IMG/VR virus record: IMGVR_UViG_3300043447_000200
Span: 1-57,920 of that record
Length of the DNA stretch: 57,920 nt
Source of the DNA: a virus
Taxonomy: Duplodnaviria > Caudoviricetes
Strand: one strand, 5' to 3'
Position 1 is the stretch's first letter, and the number at the start of each line of letters is the position of its first letter. The position numbers and the translations under genes are program-made. This document shows, in pieces, positions 1 to 57,920 of this stretch. The notes below the pieces were generated by a model that searched no databases, was not told the origin of the DNA, and saw nothing but the letters and a program-made list of their open reading frames with translations.

Positions 1-127
1 CATTGATGGCCGGTATTGCGTCAGCTCGAGTGGCCACCAACAATTGGGGCACTGATCTTCGTTTCTATACGCACCCCGATACAACAAGCGGAGTCTCTGA
101 AACTTACGAACGCGCCCGTATCGACTC
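1..127 (+). repeat. Terminal overlap block 1 (copy at 57105-57231)
   Basis: 126/127 identical by manual alignment (T31 vs C57135). Identity ends within GAACGCGCCCGTATCGACTC. Confidence 0.95.
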
Positions 128-641
128 AACCGGCTGCTTTTTTGTAGGAACCACGTCAAAAATTGGCAATCCGAAGATTATGACGATTGCCAACGATAGC
201 ACTGCTGCTTTGCATATTGCCGGTGGCAGCACCAGCATCAACTACGCTTTGAGTTTCTACAACCCATCACTAGGTCAGCCTGGCAGTATCTCTTTTTCTA
301 ATACAACGACAACATACAGCACATCTTCTGACTATCGTCTGAAAGAAGACATCCAGCCAATGGCTGGGGCGCTAGCCCGTGTAGCTTCGCTCAAGCCATG
401 CACATACAAATGGAAACTTGATGGCTCTACTGGTGAAGGTTTTATTGCGCATGAACTGCAAGCGGTTGTACCCAATGCTGTCACGGGCGAGAAAGATGCC
501 ATCAATGAAGACGGCTCAATCAAACCACAAGGCATCGACACCAGCTTCTTGGTCGCGACCCTGACCGCCGCCATTCAAGAGCAACAAGCCATCATCGAAC
601 AGCTCAAGGCTGACGTACAAGCATTGAAGGAGGCAGCATGA
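1..641 (+). CDS. 5'-truncated tail fibre C-terminus with peptidase S74-type intramolecular chaperone (allele A of 56168-57880)
   Basis: SDYRLKEDI...GFIAHELQ...coiled-coil motif. N- and C-terminal parts match the end of the 56168-57880 product. Confidence 0.9.
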   Translation, partial: LMAGIASARVATNNWGTDLRFYTHPDTTSGVSETYERARIDSTGCFFVGTTSKIGNPKIMTIANDSTAALHIAGGSTSINYALSFYNPSLGQPGSISFSNTTTTYSTSSDYRLKEDIQPMAGALARVASLKPCTYKWKLDGSTGEGFIAHELQAVVPNAVTGEKDAINEDGSIKPQGIDTSFLVATLTAAIQEQQAIIEQLKADVQALKEAA

Positions 642-681
642 GCCGCGCATCAACACTAGCAAGAGCAGGCACCGCCCTGGC
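528..681 (+). repeat. Terminal overlap block 2 (copy at 57767-57920)
   Basis: 153/154 identical (synonymous C/T at 554). Confidence 0.95.
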
Positions 682-1909
682 TGGCGATTCATCGGGCAAC
701 GTTTCAGTTGGCGGTAACCTCTTTCTTGGGACAACGTCGCAAGCTTACTCGGCCAAGGTCTTGCGTTCTGATAACTCAGATGCGGCAATCCAAAGCTTCT
801 TGATTCGCAACAACAGCAGCGGTAGCGCATCGAGCTGCGGCTACTTCCTTAACTCCTTCGGTAACTCGTGGGCGATTGAGATGGGATCCACAGCTAAAAA
901 CTCGAACGCCTTGACGTTCAGTGTTGATGCTGTCGGTACGCCTTCTGAAAAGATGCGTTTGGATACGGCTGGCCGCCTTTCCGTTGGAACGCAAAATCCA
1001 ACAGCAGGCGGCTTCAATCCAACTGTTTCTGCCAAATCCTTCTTAGACCAAATCGGCGGCGGGATTATGGTGGAAGCCTATGGCAATGACGCCACATTAA
1101 ATTTGGGGTACGACGGCGCATCCATGTTTATTAGTTCGTCGTACCGAACTTCCGCTGGATACAAGCCTATTGCGATCTATACAAGCGGCGTTGAGCGCGC
1201 TCGTTTTGATAACAGTGGTAACTTTGTAATTGGCTCAACAAGTGCGGCCGCATTGCTGCATGCAAAAGGTCAAAACATTCTTACTGCCAACACCACCTAC
1301 CGCAAAGGCTGGATAGGTGGTGCTGGTTCGTGGGGCAGCAATGCCGTAGAAGAGTTGGTTGTTGGATATAGCGGTATTCGAAGCACATACGCCGGTGGCG
1401 ATGACTGGACCCTCTCGTTTACAGCTGGCACATCTGCGCAAACAAACGCAGGAACGCAGGGCGATAAGCTCCGCTTGACAGCTGGCGGCGTGATGACCAA
1501 ATTTGACTCGAACAACAATACCTACGTTCGAGATCATGGCGTATTTTCTGCGGCCGCATCATTTATTCATATCAAATTTAATCTAACAAAAAATACCGAA
1601 AAGATGCTGGGCTTTCGGCTCTATGGGTTTCTTGCTTACAGCGCTTTTATCGAGAGCTACTACGGCTGTTACCTGTACAACGCCGTTTCAACGCCTTACG
1701 GTTCAATCATAAGAGATGCTGGCAATGCTTCTAACGGGTCCATTTACTACGCAGCTGATGGTTACCTCGTGATTAGCTGCTCAACAAATTCTAATAACTA
1801 CACAGGATTACGTTTGGAGTCACTCGTCCACGGAGGGGATTATGGTGGCGGCGTTGATGTTCAGGTGCTCGCGTACAAAGGGCACTCAGCAAGCACAGGA
1901 GCATATTGA
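638..1909 (+). CDS. Tail fibre / receptor-binding protein with ERARFD/EKMRLD-type repeats
   Basis: 423 aa, G/S/T/N-rich, repeated E[RK]xRxDxxG motifs, ATGA overlap with the upstream gene. Confidence 0.8.
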   Translation: MSRASTLARAGTALAGDSSGNVSVGGNLFLGTTSQAYSAKVLRSDNSDAAIQSFLIRNNSSGSASSCGYFLNSFGNSWAIEMGSTAKNSNALTFSVDAVGTPSEKMRLDTAGRLSVGTQNPTAGGFNPTVSAKSFLDQIGGGIMVEAYGNDATLNLGYDGASMFISSSYRTSAGYKPIAIYTSGVERARFDNSGNFVIGSTSAAALLHAKGQNILTANTTYRKGWIGGAGSWGSNAVEELVVGYSGIRSTYAGGDDWTLSFTAGTSAQTNAGTQGDKLRLTAGGVMTKFDSNNNTYVRDHGVFSAAASFIHIKFNLTKNTEKMLGFRLYGFLAYSAFIESYYGCYLYNAVSTPYGSIIRDAGNASNGSIYYAADGYLVISCSTNSNNYTGLRLESLVHGGDYGGGVDVQVLAYKGHSASTGAY

Positions 1910-2414: not shown

Positions 2415-3158
2415 GTGGACCCTTTCACACTCCTCATGGCCGCTCAGGGCATCGTCGCTGGGATACGCCAGGGGTGTGAAATGCTTTCCCAGGGGCGAGC
2501 TGAAATCAGCAAGCTCAAGAAAACAGTGGAAGGCGGTGTAGCAGATGCTAAAGCGATTTACTCAGAGGTTGCAGGACTTTGGGGCTGGCTTAAAGGCCTA
2601 TTTGGTGGCAAGCCGCCAGCTCGACAAAGCGTTGCAGTCGCCGCCACCGAAGCCAAGCCAGCAGGAAATAAAGGTAGTGCAGGACGAAGTGCAAAAGCTC
2701 GTGAACGAGAGCCTGAACTCAGCTACGAAGAATACCAAACGCAAGCGGTCCACCAGATCTGCGAGCAGCTCAAACAGTTCTTCGAGATCAGGCGCCAACT
2801 CATCGAGTACTGCAAGCAGCTCGAAGAGGAAAGCAAAACAACAGCAGACATCGAAGGGGCGGCGTTAGACCGGATTCAGATCGAAATGCAGCTTGAACAA
2901 ATGACAGTACAGATTCGAGAAACCATGATCTACACGCCGAAGGAAATCGGCTTGCAGTCGATCTACTCCAGGTTCCTCAAGATGTATGACCAGATCTTGG
3001 AAGAGCGTGAGTTCGATCGACAGTTAAAGCGCAAGCAGAGGATTGATGAAGAATGGCAACAAGAATACCGCCGCCAAATCAGGTTCGCCAAGCTGGGGTA
3101 CGCAGTAGTGGTGGCGCTCGTGACCCTGGAGCTGACGGGACTGTTTTTTCATCTATGA
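2415..3158 (+). CDS. Hypothetical coiled-coil protein with C-terminal TM helix
   Basis: 247-aa ORF with phage-like codon usage, tightly packed. Confidence 0.7.
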   Translation: MDPFTLLMAAQGIVAGIRQGCEMLSQGRAEISKLKKTVEGGVADAKAIYSEVAGLWGWLKGLFGGKPPARQSVAVAATEAKPAGNKGSAGRSAKAREREPELSYEEYQTQAVHQICEQLKQFFEIRRQLIEYCKQLEEESKTTADIEGAALDRIQIEMQLEQMTVQIRETMIYTPKEIGLQSIYSRFLKMYDQILEEREFDRQLKRKQRIDEEWQQEYRRQIRFAKLGYAVVVALVTLELTGLFFHL

Positions 3159-3352
3159 CTGAGTTCAAGCTTTGGATGATTGTTGTAACGCTGTTGATTT
3201 TTTGCATCATGTTGCTGTCGTTTACAGCGGCTTACTTGAGTAAGCAGGTTAGCAAAGCGGAGGTGATGCTGTTGAGATTAGAAGAGAAGGAAAAGAAACG
3301 TGAAAAGCCTCGTATTGATCCTAAGCCTAGTGGTGACGATGACCGGTTGTGA
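3155..3352 (+). CDS. Small membrane protein (MTEFKLWMIV...)
   Basis: ATG at 3155 overlaps the upstream stop; N-terminal TM and basic tail. Confidence 0.6.
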   Translation: MTEFKLWMIVVTLLIFCIMLLSFTAAYLSKQVSKAEVMLLRLEEKEKKREKPRIDPKPSGDDDRL

Positions 3353-3518
3353 AGACCGTTACCGTTACTTCTGCCAAGACCCCAAGAACTTTTCAGCCAA
3401 GCGTTGCCAGCGCCCTGATTGCCTGTTTACGCAAGACTGCCCTGATTACCTTGTCGCTCCAGTGCTGGAGAAGCAAGTCCAGCAACCCGCCCAACCCGCA
3501 TCGGAGCCGACGAAATGA
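3300..3518 (+). CDS. Cys-rich lipoprotein
   Basis: Signal peptide and lipobox-like MTG-C, followed by four more Cys. Confidence 0.7.
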   Translation: MKSLVLILSLVVTMTGCEDRYRYFCQDPKNFSAKRCQRPDCLFTQDCPDYLVAPVLEKQVQQPAQPASEPTK

Positions 3519-4039
3519 ACTCACTCGAAATTAAATCAGTCGAAGAACTTGTTCGCCTCATTCAAGTTTGCGTCTGGGGCTTTGTTGTTTTCGTTCTGAT
3601 GCTGGTGCTCGGCGGTATCGTCGGCTCATTCCTCTACTCAATCATGTTCGTTGGTCAGCCAATGAAGGCCATGTCGCCCATCGACCAAGCCTTCACCAAG
3701 ATGCTCAACGACATCGTGCTGATTCTGGCCAGCAGCGTTACGACCATCGTCAGTATGTTCGCCGTTAACAAGGGCATCCAATCTGCCGCAGAAAAGATCG
3801 CGCCTGCGCTCGGCATACCCCCTAGCACACCCCCTAGCCCGCCTCCTGCGCCCGCTCCTGCGGCCCCTGTCGCCCCTTCTGGCGGCATGCCCGACTTCAA
3901 CTGGATGGGCTTGGCGCCTGTTCAGTTTGACGAGACTTGGAGAGCGCCACCTCCGCCCACAACTCCGCCCGACTTTGTTGACCCCTCCAAGGAGGAGATC
4001 TCGGTCGAGCGTGAGCTTGCCAAGCGGGAGAGCGTCTGA
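3515..4039 (+). CDS. Two-TM membrane protein with Pro-rich tail (possible holin)
   Basis: Two hydrophobic segments; lies directly upstream of the spanin. Confidence 0.6.
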   Translation: MNSLEIKSVEELVRLIQVCVWGFVVFVLMLVLGGIVGSFLYSIMFVGQPMKAMSPIDQAFTKMLNDIVLILASSVTTIVSMFAVNKGIQSAAEKIAPALGIPPSTPPSPPPAPAPAAPVAPSGGMPDFNWMGLAPVQFDETWRAPPPPTTPPDFVDPSKEEISVERELAKRESV

Positions 4040-4506
4040 TGCCCAAGCAAATCTATGTAGCGCTGGCCATCGTGCTGGCGCTCTTTGGTCTGTATCGCTA
4101 TGGCCACCATGCTGGCTGGGTTGATCGCGACCAGGAGATGCAGGCCGAGATCGCTCAAAAGAATGAGGAGGCTCGTGAGCGTGAGAAGCAGCTCACTGAG
4201 CAAATTAACTCAACAACCTACAAATTGAAGGATGCGAACGATGCAATCACTCAAAAACAGTCTGCTCTTGATCGCGCTATCAGCGCTGGCAGGGTGCGCC
4301 TCCCCTCCTCAAGTTGCGTACAAGCCAGTGCAAGTGCCGCCCCTGCCGCCGGAAGTGGCGACCAAGCGGGAAGCGAATCTGACCGAGAGACTCTCCGGCT
4401 TATTGCTCAAATCGCAGCCGATGGAGACAAAGCCATCAACCAGCTCAACGCCTGCATCGACGCCTACAACGCCGTCCGCGAGCAAGTAAATTCACAGGGG
4501 AAGTAA
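4039..4506 (+). CDS. Rz-like inner-membrane spanin
   Basis: N-terminal TM, coiled coil and QLNACIDAY C-terminus; contains a nested lipoprotein ORF. Confidence 0.85.
   Translation: MPKQIYVALAIVLALFGLYRYGHHAGWVDRDQEMQAEIAQKNEEAREREKQLTEQINSTTYKLKDANDAITQKQSALDRAISAGRVRLPSSSCVQASASAAPAAGSGDQAGSESDRETLRLIAQIAADGDKAINQLNACIDAYNAVREQVNSQGK
4241..4489 (+). CDS. Rz1-like outer-membrane spanin lipoprotein (embedded, alternate frame)
   Basis: LAG-C lipobox, Pro-rich mature part, AAGGA RBS upstream, fully inside the Rz-like gene. Confidence 0.8.
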   Translation: MQSLKNSLLLIALSALAGCASPPQVAYKPVQVPPLPPEVATKREANLTERLSGLLLKSQPMETKPSTSSTPASTPTTPSASK

Positions 4507-5136
4507 ATGGTTACAGCCGAACAACTACAACGCCTTCACATCAGCCCCGCTCTGGTCGAGCCGCTGAATGCAACCTTTCAGCGATGGGGCATCAACACCC
4601 CTGTGCAGCAAGCAGCTTTCTTGGCGCAATGCGGTCACGAGAGCAACAGCTTCAAGGTCATCGAGGAGAACCTCATGTACCGCGCAGAGACCCTGCTCAA
4701 GCTGTTCCCCAAGACGCCCAAGCGCGCATGGGGCTTCACGCCTGAGGAGGCCAAAGCCTACGAGCGTCAGCCTCAAAAGATCGCCAACCGCATTTACGGC
4801 AACCGTATGGGCAACCGTGATGAAGCTTCAGGCGATGGCTGGCGTTTCCGCGGATCCGGATATTTGCAGCTCACCGGCCATGCAAACTTCTTCCACGCTG
4901 GCAAAGCCCTCGGCCAAGACTTCGTGATGAAGCCTGACCTGGTGCGCACACCAGAGTGGGGTATGCAGACCGCTGGCTGGTATTGGGCAACCCACAAGTG
5001 CAACGAGCTGGCCGACGCAAGGAACTGGCAGGGTCTCACCAAGGCCATCAACGGTGGACTGATCGGTCTTGAAGATCGCATCCACCATACGAATTTGGCG
5101 TTCTCCGCTATCGGTGACACAAGCGTTTTTGCTTAA
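4507..5136 (+). CDS. Endolysin, glycoside hydrolase family 19
   Basis: FLAQCGHES, FRGSGYLQLTG and INGGLIGLEDR motifs. Confidence 0.92.
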   Translation: MVTAEQLQRLHISPALVEPLNATFQRWGINTPVQQAAFLAQCGHESNSFKVIEENLMYRAETLLKLFPKTPKRAWGFTPEEAKAYERQPQKIANRIYGNRMGNRDEASGDGWRFRGSGYLQLTGHANFFHAGKALGQDFVMKPDLVRTPEWGMQTAGWYWATHKCNELADARNWQGLTKAINGGLIGLEDRIHHTNLAFSAIGDTSVFA

Positions 5137-5477: not shown

Positions 5478-7100
5478 ATGCCAACCATTTCACTCAAAGC
5501 TTTCTCCGGCCTCAAGCCCATCGTTGACCCAACCCTGCTGGCCAACGGTGAGGCGACCATCGCCAGCAACCTTAAATTGATCTCTGGGGCGCTTTCTCCG
5601 CTTCTGGGTACCACCACCCTCAAAGCCCTGACAAAGACCACTCCTGCCACGATTTACCGCTACGGCACGGCATCGGCAGAGACCGACTACTGGCTCGAGT
5701 TCACCGCCCAGACCGATGTGATGAAGTCGCCGGTGCTGAACAATCAGTACGGCATGCTCTACTGGAGCGACGGTGTCCAGGCTAAGTACGCCCCCAACAG
5801 CGCGATCCTGTCTGGCTCGACCTACCCTGGCGCCAGCTACAACCTGGGCATCCCCGCCCCTGCTGCCACCCCTTCGGCGTCTGGAACGGCTGCATCCGCG
5901 GCAGCTCAGTCCGAAACCCGAACCTATGTCTATACCTACGTATCGGCCTATGGCGAGGAGGGACCACCCTCGGCTGCATCCACCCCCATCACCATCAATC
6001 CGACCGCAGCCGTGACCGTTTCTGGCATGTCTGTGGCCCCTGCTGGCGCCTACAACATCACCGCCAAGCGGATCTACCGGTCCTCTACCGTTGGTAATCA
6101 GGCTCAGTTCCAGTTCGTGGCCGAGATTCCGGTGGCCAACACCAGCTATTCGGACACCGTGACTCAGGCAAATCTGGGGGAAACCCTAGAGACCGAGAGC
6201 TGGTATGCCCCTCCAGCCAACCTCAAGGGGTTGAAGATGATGGCGGGCAACATTGCCTTGGGCTTCGTCGACAACACGGTCTACGCCTCGATGAACGGCC
6301 TGCCTCATGCCTGGCCATACAAATACCCCATTGACCACAACATCGTGGGCATCGGTGTGTTTAGCCAGTCGGCTGTCATCCTGACTGATGGCTACCCTTA
6401 CACCATGTCGGGCGTCGATCCGGAGACCATGACGCCTGAGCGCATGAAGTTACCTCAGGCCTGCCTGTCCAGAGAGTCGATCGTCGAGATCGGTGACGGC
6501 ATCCTGTACGCCTCGCCTGATGGCCTGATCTCGATCGGCTCTGCTGGCGTGGACATCCTGACCAAAGGCATGTTCAGCCCTGTCCAGTGGCGAGCCTACA
6601 ACCCTGCCAGCTTCAAGGCCGTGGTGTACGAGAACCGCTACATCGCGTTCTTCACCCGAGCCAACGGCACCCGCGGGGTTCTGATCCTCGACTTCTCCGG
6701 CGCCAGCGCACCGGTGACCGAGTGCGACATCAACTCGGCAACGGCAGTTACGGCGGTATACGCAGATCCACGTACAGATACGTTGTACATGGCACAAGGA
6801 ACGAACATCGTTCGCTTTGACCGCGGCTCTGCGATGACCTACACATGGCGCTCGAAGGTCTATCGCCAAGCCTACGCCATCAACTATGGTTACGGTCAGG
6901 TGGTGGCTGACGCCTACCCTGTGACCATGAAGGTCTATGCGGATGGTGTGCTCAAGGTGACCAAGACGGTGACCAGCAGCGGCGTCTTCCCGCTGCCAAG
7001 CGGTTTCCGAGCCACCGATTACCAGATCGAGCTGACCGGCACGGCCAACGTCACCCAGGCCAACCTCTCCACCTCGGTTGAGGAGCTGCGTCAGACATGA
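5478..7100 (+). CDS. Virion tail/nozzle (DNA-stabilisation-like) protein
   Basis: 540 aa, beta-rich, YVYTYVSAYGEEGPPS motif, located before the ejection genes. Confidence 0.65.
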   Translation: MPTISLKAFSGLKPIVDPTLLANGEATIASNLKLISGALSPLLGTTTLKALTKTTPATIYRYGTASAETDYWLEFTAQTDVMKSPVLNNQYGMLYWSDGVQAKYAPNSAILSGSTYPGASYNLGIPAPAATPSASGTAASAAAQSETRTYVYTYVSAYGEEGPPSAASTPITINPTAAVTVSGMSVAPAGAYNITAKRIYRSSTVGNQAQFQFVAEIPVANTSYSDTVTQANLGETLETESWYAPPANLKGLKMMAGNIALGFVDNTVYASMNGLPHAWPYKYPIDHNIVGIGVFSQSAVILTDGYPYTMSGVDPETMTPERMKLPQACLSRESIVEIGDGILYASPDGLISIGSAGVDILTKGMFSPVQWRAYNPASFKAVVYENRYIAFFTRANGTRGVLILDFSGASAPVTECDINSATAVTAVYADPRTDTLYMAQGTNIVRFDRGSAMTYTWRSKVYRQAYAINYGYGQVVADAYPVTMKVYADGVLKVTKTVTSSGVFPLPSGFRATDYQIELTGTANVTQANLSTSVEELRQT

Positions 7101-8605
7101 GTTCGAAGGTCCCATCAATCCCAGCGGTCACGGACGACAACCTTGTCGCCGTGGCCAAGGCCGTCAAGTCGATCCTCGATGTGCGCGAGGGGCGCGTCGG
7201 CAATGTGCTGGATTCGTACATCACCTACCGCGACCTGATCACATCCGGCATCGCTGCCCAGGCTACCGGCCTAAGCGGTGGATCTGCCTCGCCGATCATC
7301 TCGGCTGGCCTGCCGCCCGATGGCTACGACCCAACAACCGACACCACACCTCCACCGATACCTACCGGCCTGAGCCAATCTGCTGGCATCACAGCCATCC
7401 AGTTGCAATGGAGCGATTGGGGCTACCGAAACCACGCTTACACCGAGGTGTGGCGCCATACGAGCAACGCCCTTGGTTCGGCGGTCCTGATCGGCACAAC
7501 CGACACGACCTTCTATTCCGACTCGGTTGGCTCGACGAGCAAGACCTACTACTACTGGATCCGGTTTGTTTCGCAAGCCAACGTTAAAAGCCCGTACAAC
7601 AACACCAATGGCCTTGCCTCATCGACCGGTCTGATCGCTGGTGTTGACCTATCCGACCTGATCATCACCGCCAGCAAGCTGGCTGCTGACGCTGTCGAGA
7701 GCGGCAAGATCAAAGATGCTGCGGTCACCACAACCAAGATCGCCAACCTTGCCGTTGGCAATGCTGCGATCGCCAATGGCGCAATCACCAATGCAAAGAT
7801 CGGGGATGCCGCAGTTGATACAGCGAAGATCTCGGATGCAGCCATCACGAACGCCAAGATCGGTAACCTGGCTGTCACGACAGCTAAGATCGCAGACGGC
7901 AATATCACCTCGGCGAAGATTGCTGATGCCAACATCACGACAGCCAAGATTGCTGACGCGAACATTACGGCAGCGAAGATCGCCGATGCAAACATCACTT
8001 CAGCCAAGATTGCTGACGGCAACATTACAAGCGCCAAAATTGCTGATGCCTCGATCACCACGGCGAAGATCGCTGATGGCCAGATCACGAACGCCAAGAT
8101 CGGCGACACGATTCAGTCAAACAATTACAGCCCAGGCGGGGCTGGCTGGCGCATTCTCAAAGACGGTAGCGCCGAGTTCAATGGTCCGGTCATCTCGCGA
8201 AACATCGTGGTGGCCAGCGGCACTGCCGCCCTGTGGAACACGAGAACATATCTCGGCGGGGCAATCACCATCAACGGGGTGACTTGGCGCGACCAAGGGT
8301 ACGCCTGGATTGAAACCGGCTTCACCACAGAGGCTTGGAAGGCCACGAATTCTGCGCTGGTATTCACGGCTGGCGTGAATGATGGCGTGACCGTCTGGCA
8401 ATCGCCTCCTCCTGCCTATGCCATTCAATATGTTTGGTTCTCGGTTCAGGTTGTTGAAATCGGATACCAGTGGCGCTGGACCGGAAACCCTCAGGTCATG
8501 GTCTTGATTCGCTTGCTGGTCAGGCCGTTCGATAACCTCGAGTCATTCATGCTGAACAACGGCGGCGTGGGCGGTATTGATTGGAAACTTTATAGGGTGA
8601 CGTAA
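7097..8605 (+). CDS. Tail fibre/host-specificity protein with 10-aa ITxAKIADxN repeats
   Basis: FN3-like YYYWIRFV segment, tandem repeats, IQSNNY..G..GWRI motif, divergent C-terminus. Confidence 0.8.
   Translation: MSSKVPSIPAVTDDNLVAVAKAVKSILDVREGRVGNVLDSYITYRDLITSGIAAQATGLSGGSASPIISAGLPPDGYDPTTDTTPPPIPTGLSQSAGITAIQLQWSDWGYRNHAYTEVWRHTSNALGSAVLIGTTDTTFYSDSVGSTSKTYYYWIRFVSQANVKSPYNNTNGLASSTGLIAGVDLSDLIITASKLAADAVESGKIKDAAVTTTKIANLAVGNAAIANGAITNAKIGDAAVDTAKISDAAITNAKIGNLAVTTAKIADGNITSAKIADANITTAKIADANITAAKIADANITSAKIADGNITSAKIADASITTAKIADGQITNAKIGDTIQSNNYSPGGAGWRILKDGSAEFNGPVISRNIVVASGTAALWNTRTYLGGAITINGVTWRDQGYAWIETGFTTEAWKATNSALVFTAGVNDGVTVWQSPPPAYAIQYVWFSVQVVEIGYQWRWTGNPQVMVLIRLLVRPFDNLESFMLNNGGVGGIDWKLYRVT
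7700..8110 (+). repeat. Degenerate 30-nt coding tandem repeat
   Basis: About 13 units of (A/G)ATCACxxCxGCCAAGATTGCTGAY-like sequence. Confidence 0.85.
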
Positions 8606-11605: not shown

Positions 11606-14600
11606 ATGGCGACTGGAGTTAACCTCTCCGCCCTGTTTGACAATCCACCACAGGGCGCAGGGGCAGTTGCTCCTGCCGCTCCGTCCGTCAATCGAACAGG
11701 CGTAAATCTCGACAACCTCTTCTACAAGGACAGCGAACAAGCTGGTTCAGAGGTTCGCAGGGGCGGTATTGCGCCGCCTCCTCAGACCGTTCAGCCGACC
11801 ACTCCAATCGAGCCAGAACGCTCGCAAACTCGAATCCTAGACCTGGGTACCAACTACACCTACAACGGCCCACGCATCGAGGATCCAGCCCCCAAAGAGC
11901 CAGGCTTGAACCTGATGGGTTCTGCCGCCAAGGGCATCAAAGCGGTCAAGCTGACATGGGACTTTCTGGCCAACAAGCTGGAGAACGCCGTCACCGGATC
12001 TGATGAGGACACCGGTGCGATCTTGGCCAAGAGCGCTGCCGAATACAAAGCCATGGAATCTGACCCTCGCATTGCCGAGATGGTCAAGAAGGGTGACAAC
12101 GCAGAAACCACCCCTGCCGCTGTGTACGACATGCTCTCGTTTGCCGTGCGCAACCCCACCATGGTGGCCAACTTCGTGGCCGAGCAAGTTCCTTCCGTCG
12201 TTGTTGGTGGTGGACTCGGTGCTGTGGCTACCGCACCCGTTCGCGCTGGCATCACCGGCCTTGCTACCCGAGCTGGCGCAAGCGCTGCAACCCAAGCTGT
12301 CGTGGGCGCTGGTGCTACCGGCGCATCCGTAGCCTCGTCTGCCGTGGTGCTGCAATCCCTTGGCTCGAACTATGCCGAGGGCCTGGACAAGTTCAAAGGC
12401 GACAAGGATCTGGCGTCAGACTACGCCGTGACCAAGACCGCCAACGAAGTGCCTGCAAACGCCATTGCTGGCGCTTTCCTGGGCTTCAACCCCTTTGCAT
12501 CCAAGATCGCCAACATCGCCCTGCAAGCCAACATCCAAGGTGTTGGTGGTGCAACTGGCGCTTACATGGCGTCCAAGTCGGTTGGCGAAGATCCAAGCCG
12601 TGGCGAGATGCTGCTCGAGTATTTGGGCGAAGCTGCCTCAGCGCCTGTCGACATCGGCATTGAGAAGCTGTCACAGCGTAAAGCTGGCGCAGCCGACACG
12701 ACCGCTGTCAACCCGCCTCCTGCTGGCTCCGTGCCGCCCGCTGGTCCTGTGGTCGACGACACACAAACCGAACGCCAAGGGCTGCAAGTCATCCCCCGCA
12801 AGGAGCTGCTTGCCACCCTCAAGGACATGGATGCCGTTGCCTACCTGTACAGCACAGGCAACAAAGAGCAGAAGCAAAGCATCGAAACCGCGATCGACCG
12901 TGCCGGTACTGATTACCGCCAAGCATTCGACGCAACCGTTGGTCGTGAGCAAAACATCATGGCTGGTGAGCGCAAGCTCGGCCAAGAGCCTTTGTTCGTT
13001 GACTCGCTGCGCAACGCGATCGACGTATTCGGGAATACCCTTAATCTCAACTCAACCGCCAAGGTCGCCAAGAAGCCTGCCGTTGAGCCAGCCCCGATCG
13101 ACGACCCTGACTTTGTGGCTAATCAGGACGCCGAAGCCGAGCGTATTCTGGCTGACGCGGAGCGCCGCAAGAGCCAGCAAAAGCCAGCTCCTTTGAACCT
13201 GCCAGAAGGCGTCAAGTTCGCCGACCTGCCAGCTCAAGAGAAGGTCAAGGCCCTGGCTGCTGACGCGCCCTCTGCCGATTGGGAGAAGGGCAAGGCGAAC
13301 CAATACGGCGTGACCACACACTTTGGACCTGAGAGCCAAAGCGCTGATGTGCGCCCTACCCGCTTCTCGCATCCAGCTCTGCCCAACCTGTTTTACGACA
13401 GCGAGCGCAAGCTGTTCGACTCTTTGAAGATCCGCAAGGACGCCAAGGAAAAGGGTTTGTGGACTGCTGCTCGTCCAGCCGAAAGCACATCCAAGGTTTT
13501 GAACGTCAACAAGACGGCGACCCAGATTCAAGAAGCCGCTGACCAGGCTGCGACCAGCCCCAACAACGATCTGCCTGAGCCAACCGAAGGCCAGAAGAAG
13601 GCTGGAAACTACACCAAGGGTCACACCACCCTGCAAGGTATCGACATCACCATCGAGAACCCTCGTGATTCAAACCGTAGCGGCACATCGCCAGACGGCA
13701 CGAGCTGGTCAAACAAGATGGCGCACCACTACGGCTACATCAAAGGCTCTGTTGGCGCTGACAAAGACCATGTCGACACCTTTATTGGGGAAAACCCTGA
13801 TAGCAAGAAGGCGTTCGTCATTGACCAAGTGAACCCTGATGGCTCATTCGACGAGCACAAGGTCATGCTTGGCTTCGACACAGCCGAGGAAGCTCGTGCT
13901 GGCTACCTCGCCAACTACTCCAAAGGCTGGACCGGTCTCGGCGCCATGACCGAGATGCCTGTTGAGGCGCTCAAGTCATGGGTCAAGGACGGCAAGAAGA
14001 AGCAGCCATTGGGCGACCTCGAGGCCAAGCCACAGAGCGAAGTCGACAAGGCCAAGCAGGACCTGAAAGACGCCGCCTTCGACTTGTGGGATGTGGCGTC
14101 TGACGCCGCAGGCACAAAGATGAACATCACTGGCAAGCGCTACACCGTGGCCGACTTGCCAAAGGCAATCCAAAAGGTGATGGAAGCCCTGGTCAAACTC
14201 GGCTATGTCCAGTTTAAGGACATGTCTGCCGAGCTGATGAAGCGCATGCGCGCCAACGAGAACTGGAAAGATCTCGCAGACAACGTTTCCCCCGCCATGC
14301 TGCGTCAGGCGTACAAGAAGCTGGCCGATTTCGACGGCAAGCAGACTGACGCCGAAGTTGACGCCGTGCTTGGCAAGGATCTGGAATCCGTCACCCGCGG
14401 TAAGAACACAGCCAAAGAGCCTGTGCGCCCAGCGGAAAAGGAAGAGGTCGTCAAGCCAAAGCAGCAGGCCAAGCCAGCGACCGCACCCGCGCCCAAGACC
14501 GTCACGCAAGAGATCGCCAGCCGAATCGAAAAGCTCGATCTCGGCAAGGAGCGCACTCAAGCCAAAGAGCTGCTGCGTCAAGGCAAGTACGACGAGGCAG

Positions 14601-17600
14601 AGGCTGTCGTCAACAACTTCTACAAGAAGCAGGCCGAAGCCAAGAAAGCTGACCTGCTCGGCGCTCGTCGCAAGGCAGAGCAACTGGAGAAGGTGAAGAA
14701 CGCATTCAAGATCAGCGAAGCGATCCTGACCAACTTCCAGAACCGCACCAACGCCTCACGCAAGCGCGATGGCCTTGAGCCTATCGACGTTGTGCCTGAC
14801 TTCAAAGCACAGCTCGATGCCTTGCTTGGCGCTGACACCACACAGATGAACGTTGAGCGAGCCAACGAGTTGATCTCGTATCAGGCTTCTATCCTTGCTC
14901 GCATGCTGATCCGCAACGGCAAGATCAACGCTGGCGGCAAGCTGTTCAAGGCGATGAACTTGGGCTACGAGCAGGTCATCAAGACCATGCAGTCCATCCG
15001 CGCCGGTGCTGATGTTTCTCCTGGCGAGATCAGCGGCGGCAAGATCCAAGACAAGCGCCCAACCATTCCGAACAATGAGTTGGCCAAGTACCCATCTCTG
15101 GAGCGCCGCGTCAACGAGATGCGAGCCAAGCTCCAGTTGCTCGAGTCTTCGTCTGACGCCAAGGAAAAAGAAGTCAAAGCAGCCAAGGGCGACTTGATCG
15201 ACATGCTCAAGTACCTCGGCACACAGGACATGAAGAAGCTCAAGGATATGGACGATACCTGGGCGGCTTTGTACAAGGCTGAGGCTGGCGAGAAGCAGGC
15301 TCAGATGCGCCTTGACCTGGGCGAGAACCAACGCACTGAGCGTCAGCTCAAACTCGACACTCGATTCAAGAACATCATCAACGACATCACTGGCGCCAAC
15401 CTGCTCAAAGAAGCGATGCAGGATCTGCGCGACAAGATCGAACGCCTCGATGCGCTGATTGCGCAGGAAGATCGACCATACCGCCCAGACGAACTGCGCG
15501 GCTTGTTCGGCATGTTCGATGAGAGCACATACGCCCGTGATGAAGAAGGCTTCCGTGGTGACCGTGCCAACACAACTCGTGACGATCTGGTCTACGAGCG
15601 CTCACGCTTGTCGAAAGAACTTTCCGAAGCAACCAAGGACGGTATCAAAGGCAAGGCCAAGCGTCTTGAAAAAGGTATCGAGAAGCTGCGCGATCGCATG
15701 ATCAACGCTGGCCAATCTGCTGTTGCTGGCGGCATGTCATTCGAGGATGTTGCTCAAGTGATGGGCAAGTACCTGCAAGACCTGGGCTTCGCGCAGAACG
15801 GCGGCATCGTCAACGTCAACAAGGATGTTGAAGAGCAATTCAACCAAGGCGAGAAGGACATCGCTGAGTCGCAGACCTTTGACCTGTTCGAAGAGAACAA
15901 GGCAGTCGAGCAGCTTGCCGCTGGCGAGTTGTCTGCACAAGAAGCAGCTAAGGTTGCTGGCGTCCTTGACCCCAGGACCACTGTCGTTGAGGCGATGAAT
16001 GTCTTGGCTCGTCAGATCAAGGATCTTGGCAAGACAGGCTTCGAAGCTGAGTACACATCCAAGCTGCGTCAAGTATCAGGCTGGATCGCAAAGAACATGC
16101 GAGCCAACACCCTGCTCTTCTCGCAGGTTCAAGACGCTTTCCGCGGCAACGGTATCGACCTGCCAATCGAGATGGTGAACAACACCATGGTGGCGATGCA
16201 CACCCCCATGCTCGAGTACGCCAAGCAACAAGGTGGCGGCTACGCTCCTCGCGAGTTCTGGCTGCGCTCGATGGATCAAGCGATTGAGTTCAACCCTGAT
16301 GTTGAAACAAACGGCACATTCACTGATGCCGAACTTGCCATGTACGACGAGTGGAAAGAGCGCCAGCAAGCCTTGCGTGATCGCAGGGATGATGCGCGTA
16401 TCGAAGAGTCGCCCTCGATGCAGGATGCCTTCTCCGGCATGCTGTTCATGCGCTACTCGCTGGCTCAGATGAAGAACCCTCGCTTGATTGCGAACGAGCG
16501 TGACCGTCTGAACCTGACCAACTCGATCCCTGATCTGGTCAACGCATGGCATGCTGACCTGGAGCTTGCTCTCCAGAAGCGCTCTGACCTTTTCAAACAA
16601 CTGACAGACGCCGAAGACGGCGCTGTGCTGCCAACCGACTACGCAGAACATCAGGCATGGCGTGAACGCAAAGCCAAGGCCGATGAGCTGAAAGCCGAGA
16701 TGATTGCCAAGTCTCAGTACTACTTGGCGCTCCCCTCCTTCGAGGGCTTGAGCGACGAGCAGGTTGATGCCTTGCGCACCAAGCTCGTTCAGTCCGACGT
16801 GGCTTCTTCTGATTACGTACTTGAGCTTGCCAACATGATGGCCGAAGCAAACCAAGCGGCCAAGCCAAGCAAAGACGCCGTGGTGGATCCAGAGACCGGT
16901 GAGCTGGTCGACCCCGCGGAACTTGCTCGATCACAAATCGTCGACGACATGCTGGCTCGTGACCAGAGCATTGAGGCTTTGGCTGAGGCTTTCGGCACAC
17001 GCGACAAGAAGAAGTTGGCTCCGATCATGCAGTCGATGGACGCTGGCACAGCCGATGTGACCACCGCCGAGGGCAGCTTTGCTCGTCTGGCTGACGAGTC
17101 TGGCTCTGGCGAGTTCATGCCGGATCCAGAGGATCTCGATTCATACGAGATGCTGCAAGAATCCGCCGAGAACAGCGAAGGAATGGACGGCCTCGATGAT
17201 CCCCTGCGCTTCAAGCATGGCTTCTTCTCTGGCTTGTTGACCAACGCCCAGGTGCAGTCAACTGTGGCTCGCCTGACACAAGGCTGGAAGAGCGCACCTC
17301 AGATCGTCACATTGAAGAACGTGGCGCAGTTGCCTGACGGCCTGCGTGAGCGTGTGATGGAGAAGCTGCAAGGCGACATGGGTGCTCGCGGCCTGTTCGA
17401 CAGCGAGACCGGTGTGACCTACCTGTTCTCCGACATGATGCGCAGCGATGCCGATGTCGAGTTCACGCTCTACCACGAGGTCTATGGCCACCTTGGTATG
17501 CGCGCATTCCTTGGCGCCAAGTTCGATGCAACGCTCAACAGCCTGTACGCCAACCACTCAAGCATCAAGTCCAAGGCTGATGCCTTGATTGCTGCCGGTC

Positions 17601-35311: not shown

Positions 35312-35322
35312 ATTTATTTTCC

Positions 35323-43869: not shown

Positions 43870-43888
43870 AGACCCCTCCCAAAGTTAT

Positions 43889-54553: not shown

Positions 54554-55900
54554 ATGGGAATGATCGGCAACACGCTAGCTCAAGGCCTCATCAGCGGGGC
54601 CAACATCCAAGACGGTACGGTTGATACAGCCGACATCAAATCGAACGCGATCACGCCTTCGAAGCTGTCGATCGGTGCGCCGACTTGGGATAGTGCTGGC
54701 AACTTAGGCATTGGTACCGCATCGCCAAGCGTTCAACTGCATGTTTACAAAAACGCTGTTGGCGCGGCTAACCTTTTCCTTGAGAACGCCAGCACCTCTG
54801 CCGGTTCTTACGGCACAGTTCAATTCAACGCTGGCACAGTGACATCGCAGTTGTTCTCTGATGCTGCCGGTGGTGTTTACACCGCTGGTGCTGTTTTAAG
54901 AACGACATCAAACCACCCGCTCATTTTTGGTACGAACAGTGCAGAACGCGCCCGTATTGATGCTAGCGGAAATTTTGGTGTTGGCACTGCAAGTCCTGCT
55001 ACAAAGCTTCATGTTGTCAGCTCTTCAAGCCAAGTGGCTCGATTTATTCGTGACAACACGAGCAACGCATCTGGCGGCATTGACATTGGCAACAACAGCC
55101 GTATCTGGACCATATACGGCGACAATTCAGCCCTTTCCTTTTGGGATACCACTGCCGCAGCAGAGCGCGCCCGTATCGACTCCAGCGGCGTTTTCTCCGT
55201 AACAAAGGGAAGCTCTGTACTAGCAGTTTTTGGCGACACCTCAAACTCTACCGACAAGTACATCCGAATCGGAAACAGTAGCGGCAACTTTGAAATGGGT
55301 ACAGCAGGGTCTGCTGGCCACTACCTTTATGGGGTTGGCTCGCTTCCTTTGACGTTCTGGACAAATCAAACTGAACGCTTCCGCATCGACTCCGGTGGAT
55401 TTGTCACCGCCAAAAAATACATTACACAGCATTCCGAAAACGGTAGCTCAATTGCAATGGCTAGGGCATACAGCCTGCCAAGCTACACCTACAACGCAAA
55501 CGGCAATTGGTACAACAGCACTGTGAGGATTGGCAGATTCGGTACTGGTGGCGGGCGCTTGCGCGGCAGAATCCTTTTTGCCGGCGACTTCAACTACGCG
55601 TATCAAACTGCCGTACTCGAGTTTGATATGAAAGTTTGGAACGGTCAGGTTGATAACTTCTGCTTTGCGGCATCGGAAGTGATGGGCTTCGTAGGCGCTC
55701 AATTTGCCACCGACTCAAGTCGCTACATTTATTTCAATCATGGCTATTTGTGGTCGCAGGACTGCCAACTAATTATTGAAGCGGAAGACGGATTTGAACT
55801 GGCCATCAGTGGCGCACAAGATTACCACTCAGTAACAAGACCATGGCGTGGGGTGGCGGCTGGTTCAGCCTTGCAGTATGAGGTTACGTATGGAACATGA
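54554..55900 (+). CDS. Tail fibre / receptor-binding protein with ERARID repeats
   Basis: GIGTASP and three ER(A/F)RID motifs; divergent C-terminal head. Confidence 0.85.
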   Translation: MGMIGNTLAQGLISGANIQDGTVDTADIKSNAITPSKLSIGAPTWDSAGNLGIGTASPSVQLHVYKNAVGAANLFLENASTSAGSYGTVQFNAGTVTSQLFSDAAGGVYTAGAVLRTTSNHPLIFGTNSAERARIDASGNFGVGTASPATKLHVVSSSSQVARFIRDNTSNASGGIDIGNNSRIWTIYGDNSALSFWDTTAAAERARIDSSGVFSVTKGSSVLAVFGDTSNSTDKYIRIGNSSGNFEMGTAGSAGHYLYGVGSLPLTFWTNQTERFRIDSGGFVTAKKYITQHSENGSSIAMARAYSLPSYTYNANGNWYNSTVRIGRFGTGGGRLRGRILFAGDFNYAYQTAVLEFDMKVWNGQVDNFCFAASEVMGFVGAQFATDSSRYIYFNHGYLWSQDCQLIIEAEDGFELAISGAQDYHSVTRPWRGVAAGSALQYEVTYGT

Positions 55901-56168
55901 TTACACTGAACAAGAAATTGCCTTGACCATGAAGGCGTTTAGCTGCACACGCGAGCAGGCTATCGAAAATCACTGCGCTTCTGTTCGATCCGCAATGGCG
56001 GAAACAAGAGCGCAGTTCGATGCTACGCGCTATCAGCGTGATCGCCGCCTTGAGTACCCACCTATCGGAGATCAGCTCGACGCCCTGTTTCATGCTGGCG
56101 TGTTTCCACCCGAAATGGCTGCGCAGATTCAGGCGGTAAAAAATAAGTACCCGAAAGGCAGTGCGTAA
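55890..56168 (+). CDS. Small fibre-associated (assembly/chaperone-like) protein
   Basis: YQRDRRLEYPPIGDQLDAL...VKNKYPK. Confidence 0.7.
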   Translation: MEHDYTEQEIALTMKAFSCTREQAIENHCASVRSAMAETRAQFDATRYQRDRRLEYPPIGDQLDALFHAGVFPPEMAAQIQAVKNKYPKGSA

Positions 56169-57880
56169 TGTCGTACATCGGAAACACCCCAGGCGTATCG
56201 TCACAACGCATTGTTGACACCTTCATCGCAACGGCTGGGCAAACCACATTCACAACATCCAGCGGCTACACCCCTGGCTATGTTGATGTTTACTACAACG
56301 GCGTCAAGCTAGTTGCAGGAGATGACTTCACCGCAGCCACAGGCTCAACCATCGTGTTGGCCAGTGGTGCTGCGCTCGGTGACTCGATCGAGATCGTTGC
56401 TTACCTGCCTCGTGGCTTGAGTGACGGTTACCTCAAGTCTGAGGCTGATGCTCGATATGTTGCACTCACCGGTGCGCAGACGATCGCTGGCGTCAAAACC
56501 TTTTCGAGCCAGTTGGTTGGCATAGCAGGTACTGCCGGTGCGCCAGCCATCACCACCACCGGTGACCTCGACACAGGCATCTTCTTCCCTGCTGCCAACA
56601 CGCTCGCGTTTTCAACCAACGGCACAGAGGACGCTAGGTTTGATGCCAGCGGTAATTTGCTTGTCGGTACATCAACGACGGTTTCAAAAGCAACTGTGTT
56701 TGGAACAGGGAATCAGTTTGTCAGCGTAATTTCGCCAACAGGAAGCTCAACTCAAGTTGGTATTAACCTAAACCCTAGCATGACCGCTGCTGAAGCGGCA
56801 GCTAACCCTGCTCAAGCTGCAATCTATGCGGTTGACAGCAACTACTCCGCAAACATTATTTTTGCGAACAAAGCAACAGGTGCTCTTGGAAATGCGTTGA
56901 CAGAACGCGCCCGTATCGACTCCAGCGGTAATTTGCTGGTGGGTCGCACAAGCGCAGAAGGTACAACACCGTCGAAAATTCAATTGGTTGGCTCAGGCAA
57001 CTTTACTTCGACAACAGTCACTCGCGCCAACACAGCCGGTATCTACCTGACGGAATCGTCTAACACGGCAAATTACGGAACCGGCATTTGGTTTGACCAC
57101 GGCTCATTGATGGCCGGTATTGCGTCAGCTCGAGCGGCCACCAACAATTGGGGCACTGATCTTCGTTTCTATACGCACCCCGATACAACAAGCGGAGTCT
57201 CTGAAACTTACGAACGCGCCCGTATCGACTCCAGCGGTAACTTGCTGGTGGGGACTACCACTGCCAGCGCAAAGGTATCGATCAACGGTGGTATGTTTGC
57301 AACCGGTATAGGTGACCTTTGTATCATCAATAGCAACGATGGTATTTCTGGAGCTGGTTTTGGCTTAGGGGTTAACAGAACAAACGCAGACGGAAACGCT
57401 GTCTACTTCTGGCGAGCTGGCTCTTTCAAGGGTGCGATTGTTGTAAGTACTGGTGGTACGTCATATACAACGGCTTCTGACTACCGCCTGAAAGAAAACG
57501 TCACACCTATGACAGGTGCGTTGGCCCGTGTCGCAGCGCTAAAACCTGTCACATACAAATGGAAGGCTGACGGCTCGGATGGTGAGGGCTTTGTTGCTCA
57601 TGAACTGCAAGAGGTTGTTCCAACTGCGGTATCTGGTGAGAAAGATGCTACACGCATTGAGCAGTACGAGATCAGCCCCGCTGTGCCAGCTACGTTTGAC
57701 GAAGAAGGCAATGAGCTAACACCCGCAGTCGAGGCTGTGATGGGCGAGCGTGAAGTGCCTGTCTATCAAGGCATCGACACCAGCTTCTTGGTTGCGACCC
57801 TGACCGCCGCCATTCAAGAGCAACAAGCCATCATCGAACAGCTCAAGGCTGACGTACAAGCATTGAAGGAGGCAGCATGA
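56168..57880 (+). CDS. Tail fibre with ERARIDSSG repeats and C-terminal peptidase S74-type chaperone (allele B)
   Basis: MSYIGN..., VYYNGVKL, repeats, SDYRLKEN...GFVAHELQ. Confidence 0.9.
   Translation: MSYIGNTPGVSSQRIVDTFIATAGQTTFTTSSGYTPGYVDVYYNGVKLVAGDDFTAATGSTIVLASGAALGDSIEIVAYLPRGLSDGYLKSEADARYVALTGAQTIAGVKTFSSQLVGIAGTAGAPAITTTGDLDTGIFFPAANTLAFSTNGTEDARFDASGNLLVGTSTTVSKATVFGTGNQFVSVISPTGSSTQVGINLNPSMTAAEAAANPAQAAIYAVDSNYSANIIFANKATGALGNALTERARIDSSGNLLVGRTSAEGTTPSKIQLVGSGNFTSTTVTRANTAGIYLTESSNTANYGTGIWFDHGSLMAGIASARAATNNWGTDLRFYTHPDTTSGVSETYERARIDSSGNLLVGTTTASAKVSINGGMFATGIGDLCIINSNDGISGAGFGLGVNRTNADGNAVYFWRAGSFKGAIVVSTGGTSYTTASDYRLKENVTPMTGALARVAALKPVTYKWKADGSDGEGFVAHELQEVVPTAVSGEKDATRIEQYEISPAVPATFDEEGNELTPAVEAVMGEREVPVYQGIDTSFLVATLTAAIQEQQAIIEQLKADVQALKEAA
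56903..57252 (+). repeat. 41-nt direct repeat (56903-56943 and 57212-57252) bounding one fibre module
   Basis: GAACGCGCCCGTATCGACTCCAGCGGTAAYTTGCTGGTGGG, 40/41 identical. Confidence 0.95.
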
Positions 57881-57920
57881 GCCGCGCATCAACACTAGCA
57901 AGAGCAGGCACCGCCCTGGC

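What the first reader, a model, noticed from the sequence alone, without database searches (positions are those of the whole stretch)
1..681. The two window ends are different alleles of the same fibre locus, swapped between conserved junctions
Seen: 1-127 equals 57105-57231 and 528-681 equals 57767-57920 (one SNP each), but the interiors differ (400 nt vs 535 nt). The interior encodes the last fibre module, which is unrelated between alleles (TGCFFVGTTSKIGNPK... vs SGNLLVGTTTASAKV...). It also encodes a diverged S74 chaperone, with a roughly 30-aa-longer loop in allele B. Both alleles keep the reading frame. Divergence starts within GAACGCGCCCGTATCGACTC and ends at CAAGGCATCGACACCAGC. Inference: a captured module-exchange event, either two co-existing haplotypes or a heterozygous terminal redundancy in a single molecule.
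Basis: partly seen in the sequence, partly recalled or inferred. Interest (0 to 1): 0.85.

Follow-up and report, generated by a model that had tools for sequence, protein, structure and literature searches.

The report
Phage fibre-tip variants at contig ends
The two ends of this phage contig are the same tail-fibre locus assembled twice, once for each of two co-occurring fibre-tip variants, so it shows ordinary fibre-tip diversity and not a special genome end.

Summary
1-127 equals 57105-57231 and 528-681 equals 57767-57920, each with one SNP. Between them lie 400 nt (allele A) and 535 nt (allele B), both in frame. The window is a whole IMG/VR record of a temperate freshwater phage.

The geometry points to the assembler. 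The contig starts exactly 127 nt before the A/B divergence. Its last 127 nt are an exact copy of 555-681, starting right after the last A/B difference. 127 is the top k of the JGI metaSPAdes workflow. So 1-681 fits one graph edge (127+427+127) attached to a 57,239-nt circle that carries allele B.

Relatives place one S74 fibre locus between the genes at the window's end and those at its start. In run X1, one contig of a separate assembly carries allele B past the window end without a break.

Allele A's flanks are specific to this lineage, so A comes from the same or a closely related phage. Each allele replaces the distal fibre module plus about two thirds of the S74 chaperone.

Both junction strings occur exactly in at least 118 other viral contigs. 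Twenty-three further interiors lie between both.

Verdict: real but ordinary fibre-tip polymorphism, shown through an assembly artefact. A terminal redundancy in one molecule is unlikely. No raw reads were available to settle this.

The parts
1..127 (+). Left shared block, A-side copy. It is exactly 127 nt and is read as the start vertex of the allele-A graph edge. It encodes the end of the penultimate fibre module and the module-boundary motif (108-127).
   Evidence: identical to 57105-57231 except T/C at 31/57135.
128..527 (+). Allele A interior (400 nt). The distal fibre module (tip, about 129-326, 66 aa) is followed by the N-terminal part of a short-loop S74 chaperone (from 327).
528..681 (+). 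Right shared block, A-side copy. It holds the last 37 codons and the stop of the fibre gene and the first 44 nt of the next gene. 555-681 is exactly repeated as the last 127 nt of the window.
638..1909 (+). Next gene (423 aa, fibre-like, carries one copy of the boundary motif at 1193). It has no relatives in Pfam, PHROGs or the IMG/VR scan, so its start is a lineage-specific marker in allele A's right flank.
56168..57880 (+). Complete tail-fibre gene carrying allele B (570 aa). It has an N-terminal anchor, repeated modules each opened by the boundary motif (56627, 56903, 57212), a tip, and a C-terminal S74 chaperone.
57105..57231 (+). Left shared block, B-side copy.
57232..57766 (+). Allele B interior (535 nt). 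The tip (about 57233-57475, 81 aa) is followed by the S74 chaperone from 57476, which has a 30-aa loop insertion (about 57650-57766).
   Evidence: In run X1, Logan contig record 8 covers 57225-57920 with no difference.
57767..57920 (+). Right shared block, B-side copy. 57794-57920 is the exact 127-nt repeat of 555-681, read as the end vertex where the path closes the circle.
54554..55900 (+). Upstream fibre gene (448 aa) with two more copies of the boundary motif (54944, 55163).

Best explanation
The window is a metagenome-assembled circular genome of about 57.2 kb from a temperate freshwater tailed phage with one S74-type tail-fibre locus. The sampled population held at least two versions of the last 400-535 nt of variable sequence in that gene. 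The de Bruijn graph (k=127) therefore had a bubble. The assembler's path started on the allele-A edge (1-681 = 127+427+127), entered the circle at the vertex 555-681, went once round through allele B, and stopped on reaching that vertex again. Each genome carries one allele. Each allele consists of the distal fibre module plus the first two thirds of the intramolecular chaperone. By inference from the family, the chaperone folds the trimeric tip and then cuts itself off at the Ser of the S-D-Y-R-L-K motif. The mature fibres would then differ only in their last 66 or 81 residues, the part expected to touch the host. The mosaic pattern (99% / 52% / 99% identity) is best explained by homologous recombination at two boundaries that many phages share. 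Shown: the geometry, the domains, the synteny and the shared boundaries. Inferred: the assembler path, one allele per genome, cleavage, receptor binding and recombination.
For: (1) The longest repeated suffix of the window is exactly 127 nt (57794-57920 = 555-681) and starts right after the last A/B difference. The contig also starts exactly 127 nt before the first A/B divergence. (2) The JGI workflow assembles with metaSPAdes at k = 33,55,77,99,127 (passage in the Assembly section). The window is an IMG/VR record classed 'linear' with CheckV completeness 100. (3) Synteny supports one locus at the join. The S74 fibre is preceded by homologues of window genes 52281-54217 in L167, L182, L138, L089, L008, L220, L273 and L227. 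It is followed by homologues of 2415-5136 in L079, L173, L059, L210, L287, L109, L041, L276 and L216. One uninterrupted 60-kb contig (L415) runs terminase, portal, capsid, 53533 and 53995, then 8.4 kb of unlike DNA where the fibre locus would lie, then 3515, 4039 and 4507. (4) In run X1, Logan contig record 8 (3502 nt, depth 28) covers 57225-57920 with 0 differences, is not broken at the right shared block, and runs 2806 nt past the window end. Backbone contigs there have depth 24.8-31.3. So after allele B there is a single continuation, and allele B has roughly backbone depth. (5) Allele A's flanks are lineage-specific. In 23 other loci that hold both junction strings, the 100 nt upstream are 20-39% identical to the window and the next-gene start is 10-41% identical. 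A and B share 107 nt upstream and 128 nt downstream with one SNP each, including 44 nt of a gene with no relative in IMG/VR. (6) No second copy of either interior exists elsewhere in the window.
Against: No raw reads were available; all runs are kept as contigs, so the decisive depth and read-pair test was not done. Allele A was not seen in any independent data. The single read-laying run used the B side, and no loose end at 57231-57241 appears among the X1 rows shown (98 more rows were not shown). The left 127-mer is not identical in the two copies (SNP at 31), so a strict shared vertex needs a third combination, T followed by B-like sequence. X1 record 7 (56901-57241, one C>T change, depth 16.4) fits that, but I could not see at which position its change lies. 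The same record has 284 unlike letters upstream of 56901, so the variant carrying T may differ from this phage in more than the last module. I do not know which assembler made this particular record. That circular SPAdes paths end with a k-long overlap is recalled, not tested here.
Confidence: 0.8

Rival explanations
1. Allele A comes from a different co-occurring phage, or from another fibre gene, that shares only the penultimate module and the fibre 3' end. Its attachment to the contig start would then be a chimeric join made by the assembler at shared k-mers.
For: X1 record 7 shows the penultimate module (56901-57241, one C>T change) attached to 284 unlike letters upstream, at about half the backbone depth. 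Fibre modules and junction strings are shared by many unrelated phages. Allele A was not found in any other record.
Against: A's flanks match this lineage over 107 nt upstream and 128 nt downstream with one SNP each. The downstream flank includes 44 nt of the next gene, which has no relative in IMG/VR. The 23 other cassettes with both junction strings have unlike outer flanks.
Confidence: 0.13
2. Both copies exist in one DNA molecule, either as a terminal redundancy whose two copies differ or as tandem paralogous fibre ends in a longer genome.
For: Some relatives do carry two S74 fibre ends 1.7-2.6 kb apart: L128 and L168 each have two matches to the right junction string. The assembly alone cannot tell a repeat from a bubble.
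Against: Both contig ends lie exactly 127 nt from the points of difference, which a physical end would match only by coincidence. X1 record 8 passes the right shared block unbroken, so only one continuation follows it. CheckV completeness is 100. Synteny in relatives leaves room for one such locus at the join. That terminal repeats of one molecule are copied from one template and are normally identical is general knowledge, not tested here.
Confidence: 0.04
3. A programmed diversification system of the phage switches the tip, such as a diversity-generating retroelement, an invertase shufflon or silent-cassette conversion.
For: The phage encodes a tyrosine integrase (21054-22112, minus strand) and an ERF annealing protein (25927-26691, minus strand). 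The variable part is the host-recognition end.
Against: No silent copy of either interior and no flanking inverted repeats are present. The alleles differ in length by 135 nt and are 52% identical, which is not the pattern of adenine-directed retroelement mutagenesis. The two copies are in direct orientation at contig ends. I did not scan every ORF for a reverse transcriptase.
Confidence: 0.02

Closest known systems
Unpopped strain bubble in a circular de Bruijn-graph assembly (metaSPAdes, k=127), giving an imperfect end overlap
   Same: The end overlap is exactly k long. The contig begins with a whole edge whose first k letters precede the divergence. A circular gene order is supported by relatives.
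   Different: An ordinary circular contig repeats its own first k letters at its end. Here the path closes on an internal vertex (555-681) because it began on the alternative branch, so end-repeat detection failed and IMG/VR classed the record 'linear'.
Tail fibres and tailspikes with a C-terminal intramolecular chaperone (Peptidase_S74), such as the K1F endosialidase and phage T5 L-shaped fibre families (names recalled)
   Same: PF13884 scores above its cut-off in both alleles. The S-D-Y-R-L-K start is invariant in 14 of 14 aligned sequences. The domain is C-terminal. A profile gives weak hits to solved fibre chains: 8jov at E = 4.2e-4 and 6f45 at E = 0.16.
   Different: No solved structure matches the whole protein at E <= 0.01. 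The domain comes in two discrete forms here, a short loop and a 30-aa longer loop. The swap boundary lies inside the chaperone, after the loop.
Mosaic receptor-binding proteins exchanged by recombination at conserved motifs, as in T-even distal fibre genes (recalled) and in Ackermannviridae tailspikes, Alteromonas phage fibres and Klebsiella phage RBPs (search listing and abstracts only: PMC8432352, PMC10579305, PMC12654880)
   Same: Identity steps sharply at conserved boundaries. The variable part is the distal host-recognition end. The same boundaries recur in many otherwise unrelated phages.
   Different: The phages here are uncultured and from fresh water. The unit is one roughly 70-aa terminal module plus part of its chaperone. 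Host and receptor are unknown.

Membership tests
Peptidase_S74 intramolecular chaperone fibre | Pfam PF13884 match above the gathering score | tested here: met
   B scores 47.8 bits (residues 437-488) and A scores 52.3 bits (residues 109-161), against a cut-off of 22.
Peptidase_S74 intramolecular chaperone fibre | Conserved Ser and Lys of the S-D-x-R-x-K start of the domain (their catalytic role is recalled from the endosialidase literature) | tested here: met
   S1, D2, R4 and K6 are invariant in 14 of 14 sequences, including both alleles.
Peptidase_S74 intramolecular chaperone fibre | Autoproteolytic release of the domain after trimer folding | not testable with these tools
   This needs expression and mass or gel analysis.
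Direct terminal repeat or terminal redundancy of a phage genome | The same sequence at both ends of the molecule | tested here: not met
   The ends do not match base for base. The shared blocks enclose 400 and 535 nt that are 52% identical. IMG/VR classes the record 'linear'.
De Bruijn-graph bubble traversed twice | Contig ends lie exactly k from the points where the branches differ | tested here: met
   the repeated suffix is exactly 127 nt and the left shared block is 127 nt; k=127 is the largest k of the JGI workflow.
De Bruijn-graph bubble traversed twice | Branch depths sum to the backbone depth, and the shared blocks are at backbone depth | not testable with these tools
   Only contigs of the runs are kept, not reads. 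The only hint is that the contig holding B has depth 28 against 24.8-31.3 for the backbone.
Diversity-generating retroelement | A template and variable repeat pair of equal length that differs at adenines, plus a reverse transcriptase | tested here: not met
   No further copy of either interior is in the window. The alleles differ by 135 nt in length. A reverse transcriptase was not searched for in all ORFs.
Invertase-driven fibre switching (Gin/Cin/shufflon type) | Inverted repeats flanking alternative fibre ends, plus a serine invertase | tested here: not met
   One search found only one weak inverted pair (14319 and 29202), far from the locus. The copies are in direct orientation. No invertase was seen among the ORFs scanned, but not all ORFs were scanned.

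The most novel reading that the evidence does not exclude
The two junction strings are not merely conserved protein motifs. They would be recombination linkers maintained at the nucleotide level, letting a community-wide pool of 'tip plus chaperone' cassettes move between unrelated freshwater phages. Phage annealing proteins such as the ERF encoded here might help. This phage population would then keep several cassettes as a balanced polymorphism. In support: both strings are exact in at least 118 and at least 120 IMG/VR contigs; 23 distinct interiors lie between both, all in the same frame; tip type and chaperone type occur in mixed pairings (L010, L089); and a third junction in run X1 sits at another copy of the left motif. 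Against: in 107 chaperone genes chosen by protein patterns, synonymous variation is only mildly reduced over Q-G-I-D-T-S-F and is normal in the codons that follow.
Probability: 0.15. Interest if true: 0.55.

Novelty: new member of a known kind. Interest (0 to 1): 0.25.

Why it matters
There are two practical points. First, a complete circular phage genome can be classed 'linear' because a strain bubble sits at the point where the assembler closed the circle. An exact k-long match between a contig's last bases and an internal site near its start is a simple way to recognise such cases and recover both alleles. Second, the locus gives a clean natural example of which part of an S74-type fibre is exchanged: the last module of about 70 aa plus the loop-bearing part of its chaperone. 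It also shows where the boundaries lie, which is useful for reading host-range variation in uncultured freshwater phages. Neither point would surprise a phage specialist.

Tried and rejected
Close cultured relatives: blastn of 54000-57920 against the phage collection gave a single 190-nt match at 70%, to Roseobacter phage CRP-7.

Other carriers of allele A: the IMG/VR protein scan peaked at 64% identity. The metagenome-contig scan peaked at 61% for matches reaching the tip and 76% for a chaperone-only match. Both tools warn that records very near the window may be left out.

Relatives of the next gene (638-1909): none in IMG/VR, Pfam or PHROGs.

Solved structures: the whole fibre gave nothing at E <= 0.01. 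The chaperone profile gave only weak hits.

Reads: all 20 runs listed are kept as contigs, so depth, read pairs and allele fractions could not be measured. In X1, bins 55168-56553 have no cover. Only about 86 in 100 of that run was read, so this hole means nothing. The joints linking about 57238-57258 to about 57757-57815 in X1, X2, X4 and X7 have sides of only 21-30 nt. The tool warns that such joints often come from other organisms, so I use them only as a hint that other interiors sit between the same motifs. The shares of 0.05-0.30 in X2-X20 were not used to name a habitat beyond the labels shown.

Nucleotide-level selection on the junction strings: the effect was mild only, so I do not claim it.

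The genome-contig scan for a host gave four MAG contigs. The best, L415, is labelled Phycisphaerales, but it is a 60-kb phage-like contig, so the bin label is not evidence of the host.

I did not run structure prediction or complex prediction, because neither would change the verdict.

Full report
WHAT THE SEQUENCE SHOWS

1-127 equals 57105-57231 except at 31/57135 (T vs C, Val vs Ala). 528-681 equals 57767-57920 except at 554/57793 (C vs T, synonymous). Between these blocks lie 400 nt at the start of the window (allele A) and 535 nt at its end (allele B). The difference is 45 codons, and the interiors are 52% identical in a global alignment.

The window is a whole IMG/VR virus record of 57,920 nt. 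It is classed 'linear', with a CheckV completeness of 100.

The end copy lies in a complete 570-aa fibre gene (56168-57880). The start copy is the last 212 codons of the same kind of gene (3-641). A 423-aa gene (638-1909) starts 4 nt before the fibre stop, and its first 44 nt are part of the right shared block.

THE PHAGE

- Terminase large subunit at 44443, portal or adaptor at 45897, major head protein at 49572, internal virion protein at 5478, and fibre-like genes at 54554 and 7097.
- A 3078-aa protein with InPase and LPD38 domains at 11606-20842.
- On the minus strand, a tyrosine integrase (21054-22112) and an ERF annealing protein (25927-26691). On the plus strand, a primase-helicase (26829-28625).
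- Five tRNA genes at 43650-44129.
- GC content is 55%.
- The runs that hold the sequence are labelled freshwater or aquatic metagenomes.
- No cultured phage is close.

WHY THE TWO ENDS ARE AN ASSEMBLY PATH AND NOT A GENOME END

The longest suffix of the window that occurs a second time is exactly 127 nt: 57794-57920 equals 555-681. It begins at the base after the last difference between the two copies. The contig also begins exactly 127 nt before the first A/B divergence.

The JGI metagenome workflow, which feeds IMG, assembles with metaSPAdes at k = 33,55,77,99,127 (passage read in the Assembly section of bioRxiv 10.1101/2020.09.30.320929). In such a graph an edge carries the k-mer of its start and end vertices. 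So 1-681 (127+427+127) has the exact form of the alternative branch of a bubble.

The rest of the contig is one turn of a 57,239-nt circle through the other branch, ending when the vertex 555-681 is met again. This leaves no free parameter for either end. A packaging end or a terminal repeat would fall at these two positions only by coincidence. I do not know which assembler made this particular record. That circular SPAdes paths end in a k-long overlap is recalled, not tested.

One wrinkle remains. The left 127-mer differs at position 31 between the copies. For 1-127 to be a branching vertex, the T form must also be followed by B-like sequence in some molecules.

Run X1 may be the source sample, so it is not independent. 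It has a Logan contig (record 7, 625 nt, depth 16.4) that covers 56901-57241 with one change. The only change type listed for X1 is C>T, which matches 57135, but I could not see the position. That contig runs 10 nt into B-like sequence. Upstream of 56901 it has 284 letters unlike the window. The break falls at another copy of the module-boundary motif.

So at least three combinations seem to be present, and the variant carrying T may differ from this phage in more than the last module.

ONE LOCUS PER GENOME

In related contigs the S74 fibre is preceded by homologues of window genes 52281-54217 (L167, L182, L138, L089, L008, L220, L273, L227). It is followed by homologues of 2415-5136 (L079, L173, L059, L210, L287, L109, L041, L276, L216).

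One uninterrupted 60-kb contig (L415) runs terminase, portal, capsid, 53533 and 53995, then 8.4 kb that matched none of the window genes used as queries, where the fibre locus would lie, then 3515, 4039 and 4507. So the window's end runs naturally into its start.

In X1, a 3502-nt Logan contig (record 8, depth 28) covers 57225-57920 without a difference. It is not broken at the right shared block and continues 2806 nt past the window's last base. Backbone contigs there have depths of 24.8-31.3. A k=31 contig that passes the shared block unbroken means only one continuation follows it. B is at about backbone depth, so A is rare or absent in that run's contigs. This argues against tandem copies. 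It is not proof, because contigs drop rare variants and I could not see the letters beyond the window.

DOES ALLELE A BELONG TO THIS PHAGE?

Locally, yes. Among the loci fetched, 33 (23 distinct interiors) hold both junction strings. Their outer flanks are unlike the window: 20-39% identity in the 100 nt upstream and 10-41% at the next gene's start.

A and B share 107 nt upstream and 128 nt downstream of those strings, with one SNP on each side. The downstream part includes 44 nt of a gene that has no relative in IMG/VR, Pfam or PHROGs.

Beyond these flanks nothing is known about A's carrier. No near-identical allele A was found elsewhere, though the tools may withhold near-identical records.

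WHAT IS EXCHANGED

The fibre is built of modules, each opened by the same motif. That motif occurs seven times in three fibre genes: at 108, 1193, 54944, 55163, 56627, 56903 and 57212.

The left junction is the last of these motifs. After it comes the distal module, 66 aa in A and 81 aa in B. Then comes the Peptidase_S74 chaperone, which starts with S-D-Y-R-L-K and is 104 aa in A and 134 aa in B.

The two tips have no detectable pairwise similarity (747 of 2000 shuffles reach the score). However, of 174 unique tips cut from the loci held at that time, 170 form one network at E < 1e-4. A and B are joined through two intermediates at 34%, 39% and 32% identity. They are therefore far-diverged members of one module family, not unrelated.

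The chaperone halves are 75-77% identical at the nucleotide level, about the same as between unrelated phages. B carries a 30-aa loop that is itself well conserved in a minority of relatives: 6 of 174 chaperones are 130 aa or longer.

Identity returns to 99% at the Q-G-I-D-T-S-F block. So the exchanged unit is the tip plus about two thirds of its chaperone.

Tip type and chaperone type are not strictly tied in relatives. L010 pairs an A-like tip (39%) with a long-loop chaperone. L089 pairs a B-like tip (38%) with a short-loop chaperone.

The closest backbone relative, L273 (86-94% aa in 53533-54217), has the long-loop form at 85% but a fibre body only 36-50% identical. The whole fibre region is thus the variable part of this lineage.

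HOW IT MOST LIKELY WORKS

By family membership, the chaperone helps the trimeric tip to fold and then cleaves itself off at the Ser of its first motif. Cleavage and the catalytic Ser/Lys roles are recalled from the endosialidase literature and not tested here. The motif is invariant in 14 of 14 aligned sequences.

The mature A and B fibres would then differ only in their last 66 or 81 residues, at the far end of the fibre where host contact is expected. The sharp 99/52/99% pattern is the mark of homologous recombination with a fibre gene from another lineage at two shared boundaries. No donor was found.

THE BOUNDARIES ARE COMMON PROPERTY

The 26-mer at the right junction is exact in at least 118 IMG/VR contigs, and the 20-mer at the left junction in at least 120.

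Twenty-three distinct interiors of 397-691 nt lie between both strings. All have a length of 1 modulo 3, as do A and B.

I tested whether this is nucleotide conservation beyond what the protein needs. In 107 unique chaperone genes chosen through protein patterns, synonymous variation is mildly lower over Q-G-I-D-T-S-F and ordinary in the following codons. I therefore do not claim special recombination linkers and keep that only as the boldest reading.

COMPARISON WITH WHAT IS KNOWN

Exchange of receptor-binding modules at conserved boundaries is well documented. I saw only listings and abstracts for Ackermannviridae, Alteromonas phages and Klebsiella phages; the T-even and K1 phage cases are recalled. 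C-terminal S74 chaperones on fibres and spikes are a known family. Imperfect end overlaps caused by strain bubbles are a known class of assembly artefact (recalled).

What is specific here is the clean geometry, which allows both alleles and both circular genome versions to be read from one record.

VERDICT

The biology is real but ordinary: fibre-tip polymorphism in a phage population. The 'two ends' are an assembly effect. A differing terminal redundancy within one molecule is unlikely. I put the main reading at about 0.8. Read mapping in the source sample would settle it.

Noticed in passing
window 11606-20842 (+): A 3078-aa ORF with an InPase domain (residues 662-794, E = 9.6e-57) and an LPD38 domain (2757-2955). 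It is a giant polyvalent protein next to internal-virion and tail genes.
   Followed up: no
window 34325-36801 (-): Neighbouring genes with Amidoligase_2 and class-II glutamine amidotransferase (GATase_4) domains in the early or accessory region.
   Followed up: no
window 43650-44129 (+): A cluster of five tRNA genes (Pro, Tyr, Asn, Ser, Thr) just upstream of the terminase gene.
   Followed up: no
window 7785-8114 (+), inside ORF 7097-8605: About eleven head-to-tail 30-nt (10-aa) repeat units in a fibre-like protein that matches many PHROG tail-fibre families.
   Followed up: no
window 108, 1193, 54944, 55163, 56627, 56903, 57212: Seven copies of the same roughly 41-nt module-boundary motif across three fibre genes. 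The copies at 56903 and 57212 share 29 identical bases.
   Followed up: partly
window 56901 (run X1, record 7): A contig of run X1 matches 56901-57241 with one change but is unlike the window upstream of 56901. This looks like a third mosaic junction at another copy of the boundary motif, at about half the backbone depth.
   Followed up: partly
window 638-1909 (+): The gene after the fibre (423 aa) has a fibre-like motif but no match in Pfam, PHROGs or the IMG/VR scan. It seems specific to this lineage.
   Followed up: partly
L415 (60,447-nt contig in a MAG labelled Phycisphaerales): This contig has the same structural gene order as the window and is about one phage genome long. It is probably a phage contig swept into a bin, so the label says little about the host.
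   Followed up: partly
L128 and L168: Two IMG/VR contigs carry two copies of the right junction string 1.7-2.6 kb apart. Some relatives therefore have two S74-type fibre ends in tandem.
   Followed up: no
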